Origin: a virus
Taxonomy: Duplodnaviria; Heunggongvirae; Uroviricota; Caudoviricetes
Strand: one strand, 5' to 3'
DNA: 30,861 nt
Virus record (IMG/VR): IMGVR_UViG_3300044712_001463
Under the pieces are notes generated by a model. The model had not been told where the DNA came from. It made no database searches and saw only the letters and a list, made by a program, of their open reading frames with translations. A program made the translations under genes and the position numbers. The first letter of the stretch is position 1. The number at the start of each line of letters is the position of its first letter. Shown piece after piece: positions 2,820 through 14,720 of the stretch.

Positions 2820-3127
2820 AAATCCTAACTAGCATAATGCTTATACTTATGACTATTCTTGTGACTTCATCCTTCTTAGTGCGTCACTCAATTAGGGGTC
2901 GCAACTTTTCATGCAATTGGAAGATTCAAATGGAAGATGGCAGGAAACTTGATATATATGAACCAGGGAAGTATATAAACCATGGTCCTGGTCAAGAGTG
3001 CGCCGATGATCCAATTAGAATGGCTGAAGTTGATTATGGAGACTTGAGAAACCATATTGTTGGATACATCAAGGTCAATAGATGGGGAACTGAAATAGGT
3101 TATGTTCCACCATGTAAAGGAAAGTAA
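2816..3127 (+). CDS. Hypothetical protein with N-terminal signal or anchor
   Basis: AAGGAG RBS, ATGA overlap, hydrophobic N-terminus. Confidence 0.65.
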   Translation: MKILTSIMLILMTILVTSSFLVRHSIRGRNFSCNWKIQMEDGRKLDIYEPGKYINHGPGQECADDPIRMAEVDYGDLRNHIVGYIKVNRWGTEIGYVPPCKGK

Positions 3128-3132
3128 TAAAA

Positions 3133-3420: not shown

Positions 3421-3798
3421 CATTGCTTTGGCAGTCTTGAAATTAAACTTCTTCTTTTTCTTTTTTAATTCTGCTTTGATTAGTTCAGCCTGGTTAGGAG
3501 AAAGATTGAAATGCAAAGCAAAGTGTTCAGTATCTTTTAGAAGTTGAAGATTTTCTATTCTATTGTCGTTTCTTTTTTTGTTTATATGATGAACGTGCTG
3601 ATCTGATTTCAGTGGTTTGCCAAGGTTATGCATTATAATCAGTCTATGTATGAAGTGCTTCTGCCATCCTATCTTAAAATACAAATAGCCATTCCGAGCC
3701 CGGGATGGCTTTTTCTTTGGGCTATCCTTTAGAACCACGGTTCCTTTGGCTTCATCTATTATCAATAGATTCATTAATTTTTCAAATGACTTGTTCAT
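3400..3798 (-). CDS. Free-standing HNH endonuclease (HNH_3-like, homing-endonuclease type)
   Basis: IHRLIIM...HVHHINKKRNDNRIENL is an HNH signature; oriented against the flanking genes; Lys-rich tail. Confidence 0.85.
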   Translation of the reverse strand: MNKSFEKLMNLLIIDEAKGTVVLKDSPKKKPSRARNGYLYFKIGWQKHFIHRLIIMHNLGKPLKSDQHVHHINKKRNDNRIENLQLLKDTEHFALHFNLSPNQAELIKAELKKKKKKFNFKTAKAMLKKFIL

Positions 3799-3800
3799 AT

Positions 3801-3818
3801 TATATTTGTTTTTTATAA
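3801..3818 (-). promoter_or_regulatory. Candidate late-promoter motif TTATAAAAAA-NNANTAYA (HNH gene)
   Basis: Minus strand reads TTATAAAAAACAAATATA, ending 2 nt before the HNH ATG and lying almost entirely within the loop of a 9-bp inverted repeat (3793-3801/3821-3829). Confidence 0.5.
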
Positions 3819-3861
3819 GAAATATGAACCTAATAGATTAATTAAAAATGGGCTATTTATT

Positions 3862-3879
3862 TTATAAAAAATTAATATA
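3862..3879 (+). promoter_or_regulatory. Candidate late-promoter motif
   Basis: ATTTTATAAAAAATTAATATA; the same 13-nt core occurs at 15330 and 27911. Confidence 0.55.
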
Positions 3880-3906
3880 GTAAATGTGTGTATCACAGGG
3901 GAAAAA

Positions 3907-4641
3907 ATGACCAAAGAAGAGATTATTCAAAAAATAAAAGAAGATTCTATTGCTATCAGTAGTGACATTGAGGCTATTGAGGCTCAGATTGCTATTTTTA
4001 TTAGACTCAACCATAGTATAGATGAAAACTTTTTCCATATGATTAGGGAAGTAACCATTGAAGCAAATAAAATTGATAATTTTGTAAAATCAAAAGTGGC
4101 AAGTGGAGAGATTACTCACCAAGAGATTCCAAATGAGATGAAAGTTGTTGTTGAATTTTTACAACTTTTGAAAGAATTAGAAGAACAAGATAAACAAAAC
4201 TCTTTCGTTTCTCCCATTACTTTTGATGAAAATAGAGCAAGAGTTCTTGAGTCTACGGAAATACAAGAAAAGATTTTTAAAGAATTTGAGAAGTTGCTAG
4301 ATAAGATTTTGGCAGAAGTTGGGAGTAGAGACTTAACGGCAGAGGAAAAGGCATCTATTGCAGAAAGTTTTAATAAGAACTTGACTAATTTTAAAAATAA
4401 TTTGAGAGAGTTGTCCATATCGATTAAGATTGTGCCTGCTAGTATAAAAGAAAAAATAGGTCAAGTTAAGGATGCTATATCATACAACTATAAGCAAACT
4501 GGTGAAGAACTTGATGAGGATTTAATTGAGCTGGCAGAAGACCTTGCAGCAGAAACAGACCCAGCAGAAAGAGCTGCAATAAAAGAAGACATAAAGAATA
4601 TAATCATGTCTATAAAGACAGAATTTGACCTTGGAGTTTAG
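3907..4641 (+). CDS. Acidic, helical/coiled-coil hypothetical protein
   Basis: GGGG-A-rich RBS before ATG 3907; E/K/I-rich composition. Confidence 0.7.
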   Translation: MTKEEIIQKIKEDSIAISSDIEAIEAQIAIFIRLNHSIDENFFHMIREVTIEANKIDNFVKSKVASGEITHQEIPNEMKVVVEFLQLLKELEEQDKQNSFVSPITFDENRARVLESTEIQEKIFKEFEKLLDKILAEVGSRDLTAEEKASIAESFNKNLTNFKNNLRELSISIKIVPASIKEKIGQVKDAISYNYKQTGEELDEDLIELAEDLAAETDPAERAAIKEDIKNIIMSIKTEFDLGV

Positions 4642-7774: not shown

Positions 7775-8065
7775 TTAGATTACTCTTAGAATTATATCTT
7801 CTTCTGGAAGCGCTTTGTATTTTACCGCATCAATTTCGACTTCGTGCCCTGCATATTTTCCAATGACGACAACATCCCCAGGGTTTACTTGCATTGGGAT
7901 GAGAACTCCATCCTTATCCCTTTTGCCTGGTCCAACAGAAATAACAGTATAGGTTTCGCTTTGTTGTTCAACTATGTTTTCTGGAAGCAAGATTCCAGAT
8001 TTTGTTTTTTCATCTCTTTTATTCTCTTTTATCAAAACTATGTTTCCTAAAGGCTGAAATTGCAT
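7775..8065 (-). CDS. groES: Co-chaperonin GroES (Cpn10)
   Basis: QPLGNIVLIK, mobile loop KTKSGILLP, VISVGPGK, GDVVVIGKYAG; AGGAG RBS. Confidence 0.93.
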   Translation of the reverse strand: MQFQPLGNIVLIKENKRDEKTKSGILLPENIVEQQSETYTVISVGPGKRDKDGVLIPMQVNPGDVVVIGKYAGHEVEIDAVKYKALPEEDIILRVI

Positions 8066-8167: not shown

Positions 8168-8773
8168 ATGACTAGAACTATTGCAATCCTAGGCGGGTCT
8201 TTCAATCCAGTGACCAACGGTCATTTGGCTGTGGCTAATTGCGTTTTAAAAAGCATTAGAGATATAGAATGTGTGTATTTGATGCCAGCAAATAAACATA
8301 TGTTTGGAAAAGAGAATGAGTATTGGAAAAATCGATTGGACTTATTGAAATTGGTAGAAACCGATAGGATAAAAGTATTCACATATGAAATTGACAATAA
8401 TCTGAACGGGTCAACATATGAAACAATGAAAATGTTAAAGTCGGATCCTGAATACAAAGATACCAACTTTCTTTTTATTGTTGGGTCTGATTGTCTTTCT
8501 AATCTTCATAGATGGAAAAACATAAAAGGTCTTGGAGAACTAGTTGATTTGGTTGTTGTAAAAAGAGAAGGATTTTCAATAGAGCCAGAAGATTTAAGCG
8601 AGCAACAAAAAGAAGCCCTATTTTGTTTCAATAAGTTTATTATGTTAGATTGTGCGACGGAATCATTTTCCTCTACACAAGTAAGAAAAGTATTGACAAG
8701 TGGTGGCGATATAAGTAAAATGGTACCACACAAAGTCTTTGAGGCTATTCATGCAAACCTTCCTTCCTTATAA
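8168..8773 (+). CDS. nadD: Nicotinate-nucleotide adenylyltransferase
   Basis: ILGGSFNPVTNGH ((H/T)xGH), IVGSDCL, SSTQVRK. Confidence 0.9.
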   Translation: MTRTIAILGGSFNPVTNGHLAVANCVLKSIRDIECVYLMPANKHMFGKENEYWKNRLDLLKLVETDRIKVFTYEIDNNLNGSTYETMKMLKSDPEYKDTNFLFIVGSDCLSNLHRWKNIKGLGELVDLVVVKREGFSIEPEDLSEQQKEALFCFNKFIMLDCATESFSSTQVRKVLTSGGDISKMVPHKVFEAIHANLPSL

Positions 8774-9254
8774 AAACTTCAATCTATGCGCTAGGGCACT
8801 TGATAGAAAGAGACTTGGCAAGCAACGCGTCGAGGCTCTTCAGATACTTTATGCCCTTACTGGATTGAGCGCATCTATTGTAAATCCCGCCGTTGGAGAA
8901 GAGTATACAAAAACAACCACAAAGAAACATGGTTGGAGTAATCATCCAGCAGTCCTGATGTGGAAGGGGCATGAACGCGCCTTGATTCGGTATGGTATTG
9001 CAATGTGCCAAGAATGGATTAGGCTAGGATACAAAGATACTTGCACTAAAAAGTTTTTGTATGTCCAGTCATTGCTCAAAGATGCAAGTGATAGCAATCC
9101 CTGGTGGCTTGGTGATGACAGGCTTCATTCTAGTCATAGGTCAAATCTAATAAGAAAAGATTCATCTTTCTATGGTAATACTTTTAAGGAAGATGATTCG
9201 ATGCCATATTTTTGGCCAACAAGGGAGACTATAAATGAAGTCAAAGCTGCTTAG
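8751..9254 (+). CDS. Pyrimidine-dimer DNA glycosylase-like protein (MSMEG_6728/T4 endonuclease V-like family)
   Basis: MQTFLPY...ALDRKRLGKQRVEALQIL...NHPAVLMWKGHE...HSSHRSNLIRKD; GAGG RBS before ATG 8751; overlaps the nadD 3' end. Confidence 0.85.
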   Translation: MQTFLPYKNFNLCARALDRKRLGKQRVEALQILYALTGLSASIVNPAVGEEYTKTTTKKHGWSNHPAVLMWKGHERALIRYGIAMCQEWIRLGYKDTCTKKFLYVQSLLKDASDSNPWWLGDDRLHSSHRSNLIRKDSSFYGNTFKEDDSMPYFWPTRETINEVKAA

Positions 9255-9648
9255 TATTCTAAGGGAATCATATAAGTTGATTGATAAGGATGATGCAATA
9301 GAACAAGATGCCAAGTTTATTGCTAAGGTATCTTTTAGGTATTACTTAACAAACAAGTTTATTACTAGACAGTTTGCAATTTATGATGTTAGATTTGTAA
9401 CAACGCTATTGTTTTGGTTCTTGTCAATATTAGGCATGTTTCTTGGTCATTATTTAAATCTTCCAGCAATTTATTTCTTTTTGATATTTATAACAACTTC
9501 TTATTTGATTTATATAGAGTTCAATGGTTTTAAGATACTGCGTAAAAAAAGGATACGACTACTAAAGAATATCCTTCATAATCCCAAAAACACATTTCTT
9601 GATGATGAAACAATAAAGAATTTAAAAGAAGCGATCGGAGAAGAATGA
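9235..9648 (+). CDS. Membrane protein, hypothetical
   Basis: Two central hydrophobic helices; overlaps the upstream stop. Confidence 0.65.
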   Translation: MKSKLLSILRESYKLIDKDDAIEQDAKFIAKVSFRYYLTNKFITRQFAIYDVRFVTTLLFWFLSILGMFLGHYLNLPAIYFFLIFITTSYLIYIEFNGFKILRKKRIRLLKNILHNPKNTFLDDETIKNLKEAIGEE

Positions 9649-9661
9649 CAGAAATTTTTAC

Positions 9662-9689
9662 TTGACAAGTTAGCAAATCTAAGTATAAT
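9662..9689 (+). promoter_or_regulatory. sigma70-like promoter, 16-bp spacer
   Basis: TTGACA(9662-9667)-N16-TATAAT(9684-9689). Confidence 0.85.
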
Positions 9690-9727
9690 AGTGTTCATCA
9701 GACAATAATCCATATATGGAGGAACAG

Positions 9728-10180
9728 ATGGCAAATGTTACTTTGGCAAAGGCTTTGAATGTTAAGAACAAGTTGGCTGGCGAGATTAACTTGCTCCAGC
9801 AACGCATCCAGGCTTGCAACACTTACGTTGATGGTAAGGTTGGCAACTTTGATGTGAAAAAGATGATGGCTGAACTCTTCGAAAAGAAGGTTCGGCTGAT
9901 TGCCATTAAGACGGCAATCTCGACCGCAAACACGGCAATCTATGACAAGATTGAGCGTGTGAAGGAACTTAAGGGAGACATTGTCTTCCTTGGTTCAGTC
10001 CCGTGTCGGGAACACAAGGATGTCTCTGGTTACGGAGAGCACCGCACGGAGCGTGTTTTTGATTGTGTTTATAAGGACGTTGAGATTGCAAAGATGGTTG
10101 AGGAGCGTTCTGCGCAGATTGAGCAGTTGCAGGATGAAATCAACTATTTCAATAACACTACCAAGATTGATATTCCTTGA
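9728..10180 (+). CDS. DIP1984/DUF6847-like helical (coiled-coil) protein
   Basis: GGAGG RBS; N-terminal TLAKAL..KNKL..EI..LQQRI and C-terminal IEQLQDEINYFNNTTKI match the family pattern as recalled. Confidence 0.65.
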   Translation: MANVTLAKALNVKNKLAGEINLLQQRIQACNTYVDGKVGNFDVKKMMAELFEKKVRLIAIKTAISTANTAIYDKIERVKELKGDIVFLGSVPCREHKDVSGYGEHRTERVFDCVYKDVEIAKMVEERSAQIEQLQDEINYFNNTTKIDIP

Positions 10181-10192
10181 GTAGTGTTGCAC

Positions 10193-10398
10193 GGTGGGGA
10201 GGATGGTGACGAGTAATAGTTGAGAGGTGGCTTGGACGCGCCTGAACAGGGCGCATCCATATTACCTTCGCAGATCAGGACGATGATGAGCATAAGCTTA
10301 AAACACTTAATCTCTTAATCTAATCCTAAAGCCTCAACAATTAAAACTCTTTCGGCCATCCTTAACTGTGAAAGCATCATCCTCCCTGCCACCCTTTT
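10193..10398 (+). ncRNA. Putative ~200-nt structured RNA (nested long-range stems, internal hairpin, G-poor repeat loop)
   Basis: GGTGG/CCACC plus GGAGGATGGTG/CATCATCCTCC closing stem; TAGTTGAG-A-GGTGGCT (10217-10232) pairs with GGCCATCCTTAACTG (10354-10368); hairpin at 10234-10258; ends in CUUUU. Confidence 0.7.
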
Positions 10399-10412
10399 AA
10401 CATGGAGATAAA

Positions 10413-10643
10413 ATGAAGTTCTATATTCATTATAGGTATAATGCGAAAAATTTTCCAAAAGTTAGATATGAAGCAATTATGGCTAGTTTTAAAAAAATGC
10501 CTAAAAACTTTTCCTATGATGATGACAGGATTTGTGATATTGGAATGGGCAGGAATAAGGAAGAGGCACTTAAAGATTTAAAGGAAAGAACTCTTAGGAA
10601 TTTCCATTTTGCAGTAGATATGATGCGGACCATTGGATACTAA
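10413..10643 (+). CDS. Small hypothetical protein
   Basis: GGAG RBS; ORF track; contains DIGMGRNKEEALKDL. Confidence 0.65.
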   Translation: MKFYIHYRYNAKNFPKVRYEAIMASFKKMPKNFSYDDDRICDIGMGRNKEEALKDLKERTLRNFHFAVDMMRTIGY

Positions 10644-10656
10644 AAAGGAGAAAGTC

Positions 10657-11313
10657 ATGGGAAATAAACACTATGTAGTCGCCAGCCAGACTGCTTCACT
10701 TGATGTTGATCCTCAAATTGGATTTACGCCACTTAGCCCAAGTGAACTTCCAGTAGCAGATGGAAATCTTATTGTTGATGAATTGAATAAGAATGCAACT
10801 AAGGCTCAGAGGCGCCTAGCCTCTAAGGATGCGCATAATCCAGTTGGAACCTGGATTGCAACAAATGAAAATCCTCAATTCTCACCTGTTGGAACGGCTA
10901 ATGTTGATATTCGCTGGAACCGGCACTGTGAGGTTGGCACTAGGGGCATGGACTTCATTCCTGGGCTACCGAAGCCACTTGAGTATGACTTTGTGGCATA
11001 CAAGGGCATTGAGGCTGATTCTCACCCCTATGGTGCGTGCTATCACGACCTTGCAGACAAGCAAAGCACTGGGCTTATTGAATACCTGCTTCGCTGGGAT
11101 GTCAAGGAAGTCATTGTCGGCGGACTTGCTCTTGACTACTGCGTAAAGACAACGGTCTTGCAATTGGTCAAGGCTGGCTTTAAGGTTATCGTTAATCTTG
11201 CATCAACAAAGGCTATTGATTTCAATGGAAGTAAGCAGGCATCGATTGATGAAATGAAAACTGCTGGAGTTATTTTCGTTGACTCTGCGGATGACATTGT
11301 TTGTGTCAGGTGA
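10657..11313 (+). CDS. pncA: Nicotinamidase (isochorismatase family)
   Basis: DVDPQIGF, SKDAH, RHC, YKG, GLALDYCVKTT give the D-K-C triad and metal ligands; AAGGAG RBS before ATG 10657. Confidence 0.9.
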   Translation: MGNKHYVVASQTASLDVDPQIGFTPLSPSELPVADGNLIVDELNKNATKAQRRLASKDAHNPVGTWIATNENPQFSPVGTANVDIRWNRHCEVGTRGMDFIPGLPKPLEYDFVAYKGIEADSHPYGACYHDLADKQSTGLIEYLLRWDVKEVIVGGLALDYCVKTTVLQLVKAGFKVIVNLASTKAIDFNGSKQASIDEMKTAGVIFVDSADDIVCVR

Positions 11314-11323
11314 CAGATTTCAC

Positions 11324-11351
11324 TTGACAAGTAGAGAGGTCTCGGTATAAT
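11324..11351 (+). promoter_or_regulatory. sigma70-like promoter for pncB, 16-bp spacer, embedded in a hairpin
   Basis: TTGACA(11324-11329)-N16-TATAAT(11346-11351). Confidence 0.8.
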
Positions 11352-11371
11352 AGTTACCGAGACCTCTTTTT
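11335..11371 (+). terminator. Intrinsic terminator or cruciform overlapping the pncB -10 box
   Basis: AGAGGTCTCGGTA-TAATAGT-TACCGAGACCTCT, perfect 13-bp inverted repeat followed by a T-run. Confidence 0.75.
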
Positions 11372-11397
11372 GTATGCATGCCACTATGGGAGCGAAA

Positions 11398-12570
11398 ATG
11401 ACTATTATCAATTCATTGCTAGATACGGATTTTTATAAGTTTTCGATGCTCCAGGCTATAATCCATCAATTTCCGCATTGTATTGCGGAATATGAATTTG
11501 TATGCAGAAATGAAGATGTGAGATTCCCTCCCGAGTTCTTAAAGGAACTAAACAAAGAGTTGGATCATCTTTGTTCCCTCCGTTTTACCGAAGATGAACT
11601 TTCTTACCTTTCAAAGATACGTTTTTTCAAGCCCGACTTCATTGAATACCTTAGAATGTTCCAGCTCGATAGGAATAAGATTATCGCAACTGTTAATGAT
11701 GGTCGTCTATATATCCGTGCCAAGGGTGCTTTCCAGTCAGCAACAATGTTTGAGGTTTATGTCCTTAGTATTGTTAATGAACTTTATTTCAGACTCAAAG
11801 ACAAGGAAGATCCATTTGTTCTTGAAGAAGGAAGGATTACCCTTGAAAATAATTTGAACATGTATACTTCTCCATATAACCATGGGATTAAATTTGCTGA
11901 TTTTGGAACTCGTCGTCGGTATTCATTTGCCTGGCATGATGAAGTGATTCAATACTTGCTAAAGCATGGGCATGGCATTCTTGGCGGAACTAGTAACGTC
12001 TTTTTCGCTAAGAAGTATGGAATCATTCCAGTTGGAACAATGGCGCATGAAATCTTCATGGCTAGTCAGCAACTTACAAGGCTTAAGGAGAGTCAGCAAT
12101 TTACTCTCCAGAAGTGGGCTGATGAATATCGTGGAGATTTAGGGGTGGCACTTACCGATACCATTGGTGTCGATGCGTTTCTTCGTGACTTCGACCTTTA
12201 CTTTGCCAAGTTGTTCGATGGCGTCCGGCATGATAGCGGAGACCCCAAAGAGTTTGCCAATAAGATTATCGAACACTATAAGAAACTCGGTATCGACCCC
12301 AAGACCAAGAGCATCACGTTCTCTGATGGATTAACATTCAAAAAGATGTTGGATCTTCGTGTCTTTAATGGTGAGATTAAAGTTCTATTTGGAATTGGCA
12401 CTAAGTTGACAAATGATATGGGTGAAGGGCACAAGCCTTTGAATATCGTTATGAAGATGGTTACTTGCAATGGTCAGCCAGTTGCCAAGATTAGCGATGG
12501 TGCAGGAAAGACCATGTGTCATGATCCTCTATTTATTGATTATCTTAAGCAGCAGTTTGGAGTTAAGTGA
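11398..12570 (+). CDS. pncB: Nicotinate phosphoribosyltransferase
   Basis: LLDTDFYKFSM, DFGTRRR, GTMAHE (phospho-His), RHDSGDP, FSDGL, FGIGT, KISD; GGGAG RBS before ATG 11398. Confidence 0.95.
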   Translation: MTIINSLLDTDFYKFSMLQAIIHQFPHCIAEYEFVCRNEDVRFPPEFLKELNKELDHLCSLRFTEDELSYLSKIRFFKPDFIEYLRMFQLDRNKIIATVNDGRLYIRAKGAFQSATMFEVYVLSIVNELYFRLKDKEDPFVLEEGRITLENNLNMYTSPYNHGIKFADFGTRRRYSFAWHDEVIQYLLKHGHGILGGTSNVFFAKKYGIIPVGTMAHEIFMASQQLTRLKESQQFTLQKWADEYRGDLGVALTDTIGVDAFLRDFDLYFAKLFDGVRHDSGDPKEFANKIIEHYKKLGIDPKTKSITFSDGLTFKKMLDLRVFNGEIKVLFGIGTKLTNDMGEGHKPLNIVMKMVTCNGQPVAKISDGAGKTMCHDPLFIDYLKQQFGVK

Positions 12571-12680
12571 TGAAATCCATTAAGAGAATAATTAGCGCGG
12601 CATGGAAAAAGGTAATTGAGTTTTGTGACATAACTGTTGATTTTTGGAATAAGGATAAGGAGGAAGACCATGGCTATTAA
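12570..12680 (+). CDS. 36-aa small protein not in the ORF track (MKSIKRIISAAWKKVIEFCDITVDFWNKDKEEDHGY)
   Basis: TGATG coupling to the pncB stop, GGAG at 12559-12562; fills the gap exactly and overlaps the next start. Confidence 0.5.
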   Translation: MKSIKRIISAAWKKVIEFCDITVDFWNKDKEEDHGY

Positions 12681-12990
12681 GATGATTAAGAAGACTCTAT
12701 ATATATTTACAGATGATAGGGTTCCAGGCTCTCTAGAATATAGAGGCGGCAACACTTTTATATATAGGTATAATCAATCAGTAATACATGGACACTATTC
12801 GGTGTTTAGTGGAATAGCCATCAATGGAGATGCTTTTTGGGATCCCACTGAAGAGAATATTCATGCTTGCGCCCAACATATTATGGATGATAAGGCAAGT
12901 GAGATAAATGAGCAGAGGCAGGAGATAAATGAGAAGAAGAAAGAGTCTAAGGTCTCTTTCTTTAAGCGTCTATTTGGGGGAAAGTCATGA
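12670..12990 (+). CDS. Hypothetical protein
   Basis: AAGGAGG RBS before ATG 12670; ATGA overlap with nadE. Confidence 0.7.
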   Translation: MAIKMIKKTLYIFTDDRVPGSLEYRGGNTFIYRYNQSVIHGHYSVFSGIAINGDAFWDPTEENIHACAQHIMDDKASEINEQRQEINEKKKESKVSFFKRLFGGKS

Positions 12991-14720
12991 AGATTATGTT
13001 GGCTCAAATCAATACGACCCCTAATGACTTTGTTGGAAATTACAATAAAATCATTGATGGCATTGAACAAGCCAAAGCAGAAGGCTGTAAACTAGCTGTA
13101 TTTCCAGAGCTAAGCATCTGTGGTTATGGCGTCAAGGATTTGGTTTACAAGCCAGGCTTCATTGAGAAAAACTCAAAGACTCTCAGGGAAATTATTGATT
13201 ATTCCTCGCAGGAGCCTGTGAGTGGAATAACTATTGTTGTTGGTTATATCGATGAAAACACAACTGGAGAAGGCAAGCCATTCCGTAATATGGCGGCTGT
13301 AATTCGGGGCGGCAGAATTCTTTGCACCTACCAGAAGCGCCTATTGCCGTTCTATGATGTTTTTGATGAGGGTCGCTGGTTTGAGCCTGGAAAAGAGAAC
13401 GCTGTCTTTGATATCGATGGCGTTAAGTGGGGTGTTATTATCTGTGAGGATGGTTGGCACTCGGATAAGGGCGAAACTGGACTTATCAATCATCACGTTG
13501 ATCCTTTGCAGAGTTATAAGGACATCGGCGTAAAAAACATTGTGAGTCTAAATAGTAGCCCTTATTATCATGGCAAGGACATTGTGAGACTTCAGACCTT
13601 TAGAGATAAGTGCACGGAACTTGGCTTTGATCTGTTGGTCTATTGTAATCAGAGTGGTGGGCAGGATGAACTCGTGTTTGATGGCAATGGATTCGTGGTC
13701 GGCAAGGATTCCTACATTCATGACACCTTCCAATCGGCTTTCCCTAGATACGGTAGAGACACATTTAATAAGGAATATTTTGTAGTTGATACCGAGCAGG
13801 GCGGAATCTCGGTAAGTCATAGTAGACAAGCGGAATACCTTCGCATGGCAGTAGTTGGGCTCCAGGATTATGCTAGAAAGACAAAGCAAAAGAAGTTTGT
13901 GATTGGCTCTAGCGGTGGAGTAGATAGCGCCCTAGTAATTAGTCTCGCCTGTATTGCATTCGGACCTGAGAATGTAACAGGTATTCGTATGCCATCTGCT
14001 ATCAGTAGTCAGGGGAGTAAGGATGATGCCTTGAGACTCCATCAGAATTGGGGATGTAAAGACTTGATGGTTTCAATTGATCATCAGGATTTCCTTGCTC
14101 ATGTAAACTCTGGACTAGGATTGGAGCAAGGAAATTATCATGCTGTTGCCGACGAGAACATTCAGGCTCGTATGCGTGGTCAGATTGTGATGCACTATAG
14201 CAACGCAACTGGAGCCCTACCTCTTACAACGGGTAACAAGACTGAGTTGAGTCTCGGATATTGCACACTCTACGGTGACATGTCGGGTGGTTTCAATCCG
14301 ATTGGCGATATGTATAAGTATATGGTTTATGAGATGTGCAAATTGATTAATGAGTTTTATGGAAACAAGATACCTAAGGAGATTATTGAAAAGGCTCCAT
14401 CGGCTGAATTAGCCCCTGGACAGACTGATGAAAAGTCATTGATGCCATATCGACTTCTTGATAAGATTGTTGAGGAGTATGTTGAGAACTATATCTGCAA
14501 TCTTGCACAGTTCAAGGCTAAGATTGAAAAGACAGGATTGCATACCTCTGGTCTTTGGGCACTTCAACCAGAGGATATCACAATCTTAGATGAAAAGTAT
14601 GACCAGATGATTCGTAGGACCGATAACTGTGAGTTTAAGCGTAGACAGGCTGCTCCTTGTATCAAGCTTACCAAGAAGAGTTTTGGAACTGGGCGACGCA
14701 TGCCTATTGCCAGAGGATAA
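12987..14720 (+). CDS. nadE: Glutamine-dependent NAD+ synthetase (nitrilase domain plus synthetase domain)
   Basis: FPEL, YQKRLLP, ICEDGW (E-K-C triad); SSGGVDS, ENIQARMR, TGNKTE, APSAEL, KRRQAAP. Confidence 0.96.
   Translation: MKIMLAQINTTPNDFVGNYNKIIDGIEQAKAEGCKLAVFPELSICGYGVKDLVYKPGFIEKNSKTLREIIDYSSQEPVSGITIVVGYIDENTTGEGKPFRNMAAVIRGGRILCTYQKRLLPFYDVFDEGRWFEPGKENAVFDIDGVKWGVIICEDGWHSDKGETGLINHHVDPLQSYKDIGVKNIVSLNSSPYYHGKDIVRLQTFRDKCTELGFDLLVYCNQSGGQDELVFDGNGFVVGKDSYIHDTFQSAFPRYGRDTFNKEYFVVDTEQGGISVSHSRQAEYLRMAVVGLQDYARKTKQKKFVIGSSGGVDSALVISLACIAFGPENVTGIRMPSAISSQGSKDDALRLHQNWGCKDLMVSIDHQDFLAHVNSGLGLEQGNYHAVADENIQARMRGQIVMHYSNATGALPLTTGNKTELSLGYCTLYGDMSGGFNPIGDMYKYMVYEMCKLINEFYGNKIPKEIIEKAPSAELAPGQTDEKSLMPYRLLDKIVEEYVENYICNLAQFKAKIEKTGLHTSGLWALQPEDITILDEKYDQMIRRTDNCEFKRRQAAPCIKLTKKSFGTGRRMPIARG

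What the first reader, a model, noticed from the sequence alone, without database searches (positions are those of the whole stretch)
9662..10398. DIP1984/DUF6847-like gene followed by a ~200-nt nested-stem RNA: candidate RNA-protein system
Seen in sequence: 13 nt after the stop of the 9728-10180 gene, a GC-richer segment pairs end to end. GGTGG(10193-97) pairs with CCACC(10389-93); GGAGGATGGTG pairs with CATCATCCTCC (one G-U); TAGTTGAG-A-GGTGGCT(10217-32) pairs with GGCCATCCTTAACTG(10354-68); and GGACGCGCCT/GGGCGCATCC form a hairpin (10234-58). It ends in CUUUU. The many G-U pairs argue for RNA-level rather than DNA-level selection. CCTGA (10241-45) can alternatively pair with TCAGG (10275-79), giving a possible switch or pseudoknot. 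I do not recognise the element as a tRNA, tmRNA, ribozyme or known riboswitch. Inference: gene and RNA share one promoter, and the helical protein may bind this RNA as an RNP of unknown function.
Basis: partly seen in the sequence, partly recalled or inferred. Interest (0 to 1): 0.85.

Follow-up and report, generated by a model that had tools for sequence, protein, structure and literature searches.

The report
Uncatalogued folded RNA partnering DIP1984-like gene
Right behind a small phage gene of unknown function lies a real, roughly 200-base folded RNA carrying a row of short evenly spaced units; the same gene-plus-RNA pair recurs in many phages and bacteria, is in no RNA catalogue, and is probably an undescribed protein-RNA particle.

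Summary
The 150-aa gene before it has the DIP1984 fold (PDB 3KDQ, TM up to 0.80) but scores below the Pfam DUF6847 and NCBIfam cut-offs. About 60 homologous loci, in uncultivated phages and in Planctomycetota, Armatimonadota, Verrucomicrobiota and other MAGs, share no neighbouring gene. They share only an RNA of the same build directly after the stop codon: a long closing helix, a hairpin, a GAU box, a G-poor single-stranded array of about seven U-Y-A-A units (7-nt spacing in 47% of cases against 8% in shuffles), and an AAACUCUUU box. A model built from the window alone finds the partners (E 2e-5), and 32 of 43 pairs change on both sides. Canonical DUF6847 genes of Bacillota carry a different RNA in the same place. 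No Rfam family matches and I found no paper. Metatranscriptome contigs cover a homologue's RNA.

Best reading (about 0.55): a co-transcribed stable RNA whose array binds several copies of the protein. Binding and function are not shown. This scan has already reported the same pair on other DNA several times, so it is new to the literature but not to the scan.

The parts
9662..9689 (+). sigma-70-type promoter TTGACA-16-TATAAT for the gene-plus-RNA unit
   Evidence: 12 of 12 consensus matches, the best site in 9400-10800
9728..10180 (+). 150-aa DIP1984-fold gene (GGAGG Shine-Dalgarno 9718-9722; three long helices plus a small sheet)
   Evidence: ORF. Pfam and NCBIfam hits below cut-off. AF2 model pLDDT 95.7. 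Best PDB match 3KDQ, TM 0.67-0.80. 2240 family clusters
10193..10398 (+). whole structured RNA (about 200 nt) including the CCCUUUU tail
   Evidence: fold z -5.0. Covariance model of it finds partners behind homologous genes. No Rfam match
10193..10232 (+). 5' strand of closing helix P1 (16 + 1 + 9 + 7 bp), with internal-loop strand GAGUA at 10211-10215
   Evidence: helix list. 31 of 33 P1 pairs change on both sides in alignment A9
10233..10259 (+). hairpin P2 (4 + 6 bp, loop GAACA)
   Evidence: A hairpin at this place is seen in most homologues
10282..10290 (+). GAU box (GAUGAUGAG), conserved across the family as GAU(R)AUGA
   Evidence: invariant GAT in alignment A5. In the Gemmata clade its counterpart pairs with the 3' box
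10291..10346 (+). G-poor single-stranded array of Y-A-A units (sites at 10293, 10299, 10308, 10316, 10321, 10327, 10335, 10342)
   Evidence: site list and family-wide 7-nt period. Predicted unpaired probability 0.67 against 0.35 for the rest
10343..10353 (+). 3' box AAAACUCUUUC directly before the 3' strand of P1
   Evidence: best conserved block of the MAFFT alignments
10354..10390 (+). 3' strand of P1, with internal-loop strand GAAA at 10370-10373

Best explanation
The promoter at 9662-9689 drives one transcript that carries the DIP1984-fold gene (9728-10180) and, 13 nt after its stop codon, a stable RNA of about 200 nt (10193-10398). The RNA belongs to an uncatalogued family that goes with this protein family in phages and bacteria. 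A 33-bp three-part helix (P1) joins its two ends and holds out a hairpin, two conserved boxes and a G-poor, mostly unpaired array of about seven U-Y-A-A units spaced about 7 nt apart.

I think the array is a multi-site landing strip for several copies of the protein, which is modelled as an antiparallel dimer. P1, with its GAGUA/GAAA internal loop, would protect the ends. The product would be a ribonucleoprotein particle.

Shown: the RNA structure, its conservation, its linkage to the gene, and the periodic array. Inferred: co-transcription, protein binding and stoichiometry. Unknown: what the particle does. Phage copies inside tRNA gene arrays hint at an RNA or translation-related role.
For: - **Fold:** z -5.0 on the + strand.
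- **Recurrence:** RNAs with the same build lie directly after the stop codon of homologues sharing only 26-40% protein identity.
- **Linkage:** no protein-coding neighbour is conserved across the family. The only other shared ORF groups are clade-level synteny or antisense ORFs over the same locus.
- **Covariance model:** a model made from the window sequence alone hits full-length RNAs at the expected place in L047 (E 2e-5), L003 (0.0045) and L002.
- **Covariation:** in the resulting alignment, 94.5% of cells pair, against 61% in shuffles and 41-52% with slid partners. 32 of 43 pairs change on both sides.
- **Strand:** in the Gemmata clade, P1 has compensatory changes and the + strand scores 100-205 bits against 12-25 for the - strand.
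- **Period:** successive YAA sites are exactly 7 nt apart in 47% of cases, against 8% in shuffles.
- **Position:** the best heptad window of a whole 5-kb locus lies 40-330 nt after the stop codon in 32 of 52 loci.
- **Accessibility:** the array is less paired than the rest of the RNA in 29 of 29 cases.
- **Oligomer:** the homo-oligomer model scores ipSAE 0.57 against 0.00 for the best of 3 controls. That mark was reached by 20 of 30 proteins solved as pairs and 1 of 23 solved as single chains. Runs agree in at least 59% of contacts and partner pLDDT is at least 83. The tool calls these counts rough here, because my own alignment and four copies were used rather than two. 3KDQ is a solved multi-chain relative, so the pass may be from memory.
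- **Second branch:** canonical DUF6847 genes of Bacillota have their own covarying RNA in the same position.
- **RNA libraries:** contigs of two studies cover a homologue's RNA (L019 2912-3120, and 2923-3126), which is a weak hint.
Against: - There is no direct evidence of binding, and no RNA run for this phage.
- The window's own array is irregular (spacings 5-9 nt).
- Whole-RNA and end-pairing z-scores are modest in a number of homologues.
- The single-sequence model reaches only some members, and with filters off the true hits fall into the noise.
- Some invariant protein residues (N31, K61, E80) sit in the modelled dimer interface rather than on an obvious RNA-binding face.
Confidence: 0.55

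Rival explanations
1. The RNA works in cis as a 3' UTR or intergenic device. P1 plus the U-run would act as a terminator, attenuator or stabiliser that gates read-through into the 76-aa ORF and pncA, or that protects the mRNA.
For: No good promoter lies between the RNA and the next genes, and the RNA ends in CCCUUUU. The stop codon lies 0-13 nt before P1, so a terminating ribosome would open its outer pairs.
Against: The downstream gene differs from locus to locus, while the upstream gene is constant. In several phages the pair sits among tRNA genes, and in L006 a tRNA lies between gene and RNA. Planctomycete copies have a separate classical terminator after P1. The terminator scan finds none at 10390. 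A helix closing a 150-nt loop is not a classical intrinsic terminator.
Confidence: 0.12
2. The RNA antagonises the protein rather than building a working particle with it. It would be a sequestering or antitoxin-like RNA, in the manner of CsrB or type III toxin-antitoxin pairs.
For: There is a multi-site array next to the gene of a small oligomeric protein. The pair occurs on phages and in scattered bacterial lineages, as mobile defence and counter-defence modules do.
Against: The protein has no nuclease-like fold or motif. The repeats are 7 nt, not 30-40 nt, and lie after the gene, not before it. No toxicity data exist.
Confidence: 0.13
3. The RNA acts on its own, as a decoy or sponge for a host RNA-binding factor or nuclease, or as an RNA-only machine, and the neighbouring gene is only an accessory.
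For: The G-poor, unpaired, periodic tract resembles protein-titrating RNAs. Phage copies lie beside tRNAs and, in L008, beside GOLLD RNA.
Against: Linkage to one protein family is strict across phyla and across two RNA types.
Confidence: 0.12
4. It is a DNA-level element: an inverted-repeat mobile element, an attachment site or an origin.
For: It has long terminal inverted complementarity.
Against: G-U pairs are frequent and become C-A mismatches on the other strand. The + strand scores far above the - strand. Position and orientation relative to the gene are fixed. Pairing is kept through compensatory changes rather than sequence identity.
Confidence: 0.02

Closest known systems
DIP1984 family / Pfam DUF6847 (crystal structure 3KDQ, Corynebacterium diphtheriae; often annotated 'septicolysin')
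   Same: Same fold: three long helices plus a small sheet, TM 0.67-0.80. Similar length. Canonical members also carry a roughly 200-nt RNA after the stop codon.
   Different: The window protein and its relatives fall below the curated cut-offs. PF20935 does not detect them in five genomes that carry them. The two RNAs cannot be aligned to each other. The function of the whole superfamily is unknown.
TRAP with the trp leader, and HutP with the hut leader (Bacillus)
   Same: A short motif repeated at a fixed spacing in single-stranded RNA, read by an oligomer of a small protein.
   Different: Those arrays are triplets in 5' leaders and control attenuation. The proteins are beta-rich rings, unrelated in fold. 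Here the units are about 7 nt, lie in a stable RNA after the gene, and are closed by a long helix.
Ro60 (Rsr) with bacterial Y RNAs (Yrn1, YrlA)
   Same: An RNA of 100-200 nt whose 5' and 3' ends form a long protein-binding stem, encoded beside its protein partner, also found in phages.
   Different: There is no Ro60/TROVE gene, no tRNA-like domain and no Rfam Y RNA hit. The protein partner is a 150-aa helical rod.
CsrA/RsmE with CsrB/RsmZ
   Same: A multi-site RNA that can load several dimers of a small protein.
   Different: Those sites are GGA in hairpin loops. The window's array has almost no G. The genes are unlinked, whereas here they are adjacent.
Type III toxin-antitoxin (ToxIN)
   Same: A protein gene and a repeat RNA in one transcription unit, found on phages and mobile DNA.
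   Different: ToxI repeats are 36 nt, lie before the toxin gene and are cut by the toxin, which is an endoribonuclease. None of that is seen here.
GOLLD, ROOL and other ornate phage-borne RNAs near tRNA genes
   Same: Conserved structured RNAs of unknown function in phage tRNA regions. GOLLD lies 700 nt from the pair in L008.
   Different: Those RNAs are much larger and have no dedicated protein partner or periodic array.

Membership tests
Pfam DUF6847 (PF20935) | whole-protein score at or above the gathering cut-off of 27 bits | tested here: not met
   24.2 bits, E 3.7e-5, N-terminal 57 residues only. 17 of 45 relatives match at E < 0.01. The model finds nothing in five genomes that carry window-type genes.
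NCBIfam DIP1984_fam (NF038048) | score at or above the curated cut-off of 70 bits | tested here: not met
   32.1 bits, E 1.1e-7.
DIP1984 fold (3KDQ) | same three-helix rod with small sheet over the full length | tested here: met
   Foldseek best hits 3kdq_A and 3kdq_C, TM 0.67-0.80, E 1.8e-3. ESM Atlas 'putative septicolysin' DUF6847 cluster, TM 0.80.
Any Rfam 15 family | covariance-model score at or above the gathering score | tested here: not met
   0 matches in the window. Only chance-level snoRNA matches at E 3-9. None over the RNA in 20 homologous loci.
Heptad-array RNA behind DIP1984-like genes (provisional family of this scan) | starts within about 15 nt of the gene's stop codon, same strand | tested here: met
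   P1 starts 13 nt after the stop. Homologues start at 0-8 nt.
Heptad-array RNA behind DIP1984-like genes (provisional family of this scan) | long helix joining the 5' and 3' ends, kept by compensatory changes | tested here: met
   33 bp in the window. 31 of 33 P1 pairs change on both sides in A9, with 94.5% of cells paired.
Heptad-array RNA behind DIP1984-like genes (provisional family of this scan) | G-poor unpaired array of U-Y-A-A units at about 7-nt spacing, followed by an AAACUCUUU box | tested here: met
   Eight to nine YAA sites at 10293-10342 with a mean spacing of about 7 nt but irregular (5-9). The box is at 10343-10353.
Ro60-Y RNA system | Ro60/TROVE gene nearby and a Y RNA or YrlA-type RNA | tested here: not met
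   No Y RNA model matches. No conserved neighbour gene of any kind.
Type III toxin-antitoxin | tandem repeats of about 30-40 nt before an endoribonuclease toxin gene | tested here: not met
   Units are about 7 nt and lie after the gene. The protein is a helical rod with no nuclease match.
TRAP/HutP-type periodic binding arrays | short motif at a fixed period in single-stranded RNA | tested here: met
   47% of spacings are exactly 7 nt, against 8% in shuffles. This is a likeness in working principle only: the proteins are unrelated in fold.
Intrinsic terminator | compact G+C-rich hairpin directly followed by a U-run | tested here: not met
   The scan reports no terminator at 10375-10398. The helix there closes a loop of about 165 nt, and only 4 U follow.

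The most novel reading that the evidence does not exclude
DIP1984/DUF6847-fold proteins are the protein half of a widespread, unrecognised class of ribonucleoprotein particles in bacteria, archaea and large phages. Several protein dimers would line up on the heptad array of a dedicated RNA whose ends are clamped, or possibly even ligated into a circle. The particle would act on tRNA or other RNA during infection or stress.
Probability: 0.3. Interest if true: 0.9.

Novelty: categorically new. Interest (0 to 1): 0.8.

Why it matters
A protein superfamily with thousands of members and a crystal structure, but no known function, would gain its first functional handle: a dedicated RNA partner. The RNA itself would be a new class of structured non-coding RNA, found from soil phages to Planctomycetes. 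Its periodic single-stranded array suggests a testable binding code. Its place in phage tRNA clusters points to RNA metabolism or to the phage-host conflict over translation. The pair is small (150 aa plus 200 nt) and easy to express, so binding assays and cryo-EM are feasible.

Tried and rejected
- **Alignment of the stems.** MAFFT alignment of 19 RNAs gave no consensus pairs, because the stems covary beyond sequence alignment. mafft-xinsi and mafft-qinsi are not installed.
- **nhmmer core profile.** It found 31 of 63 loci, all on the + strand 84-226 nt after the stop, but drifted on iteration and lost the window.
- **Gemmata-clade model R1.** It is too clade-specific.
- **R2 with filters off.** It placed L023, L005, L020 and L036 correctly but not above noise.
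- **Shuffle tests.** Partial results favour the RNA over coding controls but are modest for many loci.
- **Pairing between the GAU box and the CUCUUU box.** It is clear in the Gemmata clade and inconsistent in A+T-rich phages. I leave it open.
- **Sequence searches.** Nucleotide search of GenBank phages found no match. A protein search there found only two huge uncultured phages.
- **Sequencing runs.** No RNA holder is listed for the window. The two DNA holders are rhizosphere metagenomes, and one of them is probably the source of this DNA.
- **Phage T5 lead.** Earlier notes named T5, but neither profile A3 nor PF20935 finds anything in AY543070.
- **Literature.** 'DUF6847' gave 0 papers, 'DIP1984' gave 1 unrelated paper, and 'septicolysin' gave 34 papers. 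None of the 20 listed titles concerns an RNA, and a follow-up search pairing the term with RNA-motif words brought up none of them.
- **Other.** ESM Atlas feature search gave no named relative. I considered tmRNA, tRNA-like, 6S, C/D-box and retron RNA and rejected them (no reverse transcriptase or other conserved neighbour).

Full report
**Observation.** The window is an A+T-rich, phage-like stretch carrying NAD salvage genes, GroES and a pyrimidine-dimer glycosylase. A perfect sigma-70 promoter (9662-9689) precedes a 150-aa ORF (9728-10180) with a GGAGG ribosome-binding site.

- 10193-10208 with 10375-10390
- 10216-10224 with 10361-10369
- 10226-10232 with 10354-10360
- a hairpin at 10233-10259

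Eight of the 57 predicted pairs are G-U. The + strand folds at -76.9 kcal/mol against -54.1 +/- 4.6 for shuffles (z -5.0). The - strand reaches z -3.4. ARAGORN finds no tRNA or tmRNA here. Rfam has no match at gathering scores, and only chance-level snoRNA matches at E 3-9.

**The protein.** Pfam DUF6847 (24.2 bits, cut-off 27) and NCBIfam DIP1984_fam (32.1 bits, cut-off 70) match only the N-terminal 60-70 residues. An AlphaFold model built on 45 relatives is confident (pLDDT 95.7) and shows three long helices plus a small sheet. Its best solved match is 3KDQ, the C. diphtheriae protein of unknown function (TM 0.67-0.80). ESM Atlas clusters of viral proteins match at TM 0.85-0.92, and a 'putative septicolysin' DUF6847 cluster at 0.80.

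So the fold assignment is right, but the window protein belongs to a separate sequence family. PF20935 finds nothing in five genomes that carry window-type genes. That family is large: 2240 clusters at 50% identity reach E <= 0.001.

A four-copy model supports self-association through an antiparallel helix-2 interface. The score is ipSAE 0.57 against 0.00 for the best of 3 controls. The mark was reached by 20 of 30 proteins solved as pairs and by 1 of 23 solved as single chains. The runs agree in at least 59% of contacts and partner pLDDT is at least 83. The tool notes that these counts hold only roughly here, because my own alignment and four copies were used rather than two. 3KDQ is a solved multi-chain relative, so this may be memory.

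**Relatives and what is conserved.** Seven close homologues came from the protein database. Profile-guided scans gave 33 loci on IMG/VR viral contigs and 27 on bacterial MAG contigs. The bacterial ones include Fimbriimonadaceae, Gemmataceae and other Planctomycetota, Verrucomicrobiota, and one Eubacteriales MAG.

Clustering all ORFs of these loci shows no protein-coding neighbour conserved across the family. What recurs is a non-coding stretch of about 200 nt directly after the stop codon with the same build:
- a long helix joining its ends
- a hairpin
- a GAU(R)AUGA box
- sometimes a further hairpin
- a G-poor tract of Y-C-A-A-like units
- an AAACUCUUU box that abuts the 3' strand of the closing helix

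In Planctomycetes a separate terminator hairpin follows. In several phages the pair sits inside tRNA gene arrays. In L008 it lies next to a GOLLD RNA, and in L006 a tRNA lies between gene and RNA.

**Tests of structure.** Sequence alignment cannot align the stems, so I used covariance models.

A model of the Gemmata clade shows a 15-bp P1 with compensatory changes. It also shows pairing between the GAU-box and CUC-box counterparts. It scores 100-205 bits on the + strand against 12-25 on the - strand.

A model built from the window sequence alone, with its P1 and P2, finds full-length matches at the expected place behind homologous genes in 285 kb searched. These are L047 (E 2e-5), L003 (0.0045), L002 (0.12), and also L059 and L035.

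In the six-sequence alignment, 94.5% of cells form standard pairs. The figure is 61% when partners are shuffled and 41-52% when they are slid by 1-3 columns. Of 43 pairs, 32 change on both sides, including 31 of the 33 pairs of P1. This alignment was fitted to the model, which inflates pairing, but the slid controls share that bias.

The internal loop GAGUA/GAAA (10211-15 / 10370-73) recurs in part. It resembles a loop-E or sarcin-ricin motif. That likeness is from memory and was not tested.

**The array.** In 24 distinct arrays, successive YAA sites are exactly 7 nt apart in 47% of cases and 8 nt apart in 13%. In shuffles the figures are 8% and 7%. The unit is U(80%)-C/U-A-A. The G fraction is 0.11 in the arrays against 0.22 in the loci.

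A crude heptad detector puts the best window of the whole locus, both strands, at 40-330 nt after the stop codon in 32 of 52 non-redundant loci. The array is predicted to be less paired than the rest of the RNA in 29 of 29 cases. The window's own array has eight to nine sites with irregular spacing (5-9 nt).

**A second branch.** Canonical DUF6847 genes, found in 14 of 201 sampled Bacillota genomes, are also followed at once by a conserved element of 190-220 nt. It has a covarying long-range helix (GCGAGYRC with GYRCUG) and a nearly invariant G-rich tail. It has no Rfam match and no conserved neighbours. The gene-plus-RNA rule therefore holds in two distant branches of the fold family, with RNAs that cannot be aligned to each other.

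**Expression.** No RNA library holds the window. For the freshwater-phage homologue L019, 13 metatranscriptome runs hold part of it. I laid four of them:
- One holds a single 209-nt contig covering 2912-3120 without mismatch (the RNA is about 2931-3131).
- Another holds contigs covering 2923-3126 at depth 23-46, against 1.5-3 over the end of the gene.
- Two hold contigs running from the gene through the RNA.

Contigs cannot prove ends or levels, so this is only a weak hint that the RNA part accumulates. One contig joins 3126 back to 2925 with seven letters between, and I cannot explain it.

**Reading.** The RNA is real, strand-specific and tied to this gene. The most economical mechanism is a ribonucleoprotein. 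P1 clamps the ends and the array offers about seven equivalent sites to copies of the self-associating protein. This is the working principle of TRAP, HutP or CsrA arrays, without homology to any of them. Binding, stoichiometry and function are inferences.

The rivals are a cis-acting 3' device, an RNA that antagonises the protein, an RNA that titrates a host factor, and a DNA-level element. They are weighed in their own sections. The variable downstream gene and the tRNA-array context speak against a cis role, and G-U pairs and strand asymmetry speak against a DNA element.

**Novelty.** No Rfam family matches and I found no paper. Earlier notes of this scan describe the same kind of pair on other genomes. 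I reproduced the heptad period and the 'different RNA behind bacterial relatives' independently. I could not reproduce the phage T5 claim with my profiles.

Noticed in passing
L063-L073, L077, L078 (Bacillota genomes): Canonical Pfam DUF6847 genes are followed directly by a conserved 190-220-nt element. It has a covarying long-range helix (GCGAGYRC with GYRCUG) and an almost invariant tail GUGAGGGYGGGnnnGGGG. No Rfam family matches. Two genomes carry two such gene-plus-RNA units 2 kb apart.
   Followed up: partly
L019:2925-3126 in run X9: One metatranscriptome contig joins position 3126 back to 2925 with seven letters (CCTCACT) between. That is the 3' end of the RNA joined to its 5' end. It could be a circular or tandem form, or an assembly artefact.
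   Followed up: no
L008:1-4200; L001; L005; L006: In these viral contigs the gene-plus-RNA pair lies inside dense tRNA gene arrays. In L008 a GOLLD RNA (3645-4079, 243 bits) and a freshwater-1 RNA are also present. In L006 a tRNA-like stretch lies between the gene and its RNA.
   Followed up: partly
window 10211-10215 and 10370-10373: The internal loop of P1 reads GAGUA opposite GAAA, which resembles the loop-E or sarcin-ricin (AGUA/GAA) motif. It recurs in L035 and partly in L047 and L003.
   Followed up: partly
window 8168-14720: The pair is embedded in a block of NAD salvage genes: a cytidylyltransferase-like NadD/NadR-type gene, an isochorismatase-type PncA, NAPRTase and NAD synthetase. 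A GroES gene lies on the opposite strand at 7775-8065, and an MSMEG_6728/denV-like glycosylase at 8739-9254.
   Followed up: no
window 10413-10643: A 76-aa ORF with its own GGAGA ribosome-binding site starts 15 nt after the RNA. It has no family match and no strong promoter of its own, so it would need read-through past P1.
   Followed up: no
L038:965-1104 and 1478-1553: A group II intron domain (D1-D4, - strand) and an alpha-proteobacterial-type SAM riboswitch lie just upstream of the DIP1984-like gene in a deltaproteobacterial MAG.
   Followed up: no
L053:421-855: The DIP1984-like gene of this Verrucomicrobiota MAG has a stop codon in its frame after 76 codons, but the match goes on beyond it. 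The heptad RNA still follows.
   Followed up: no
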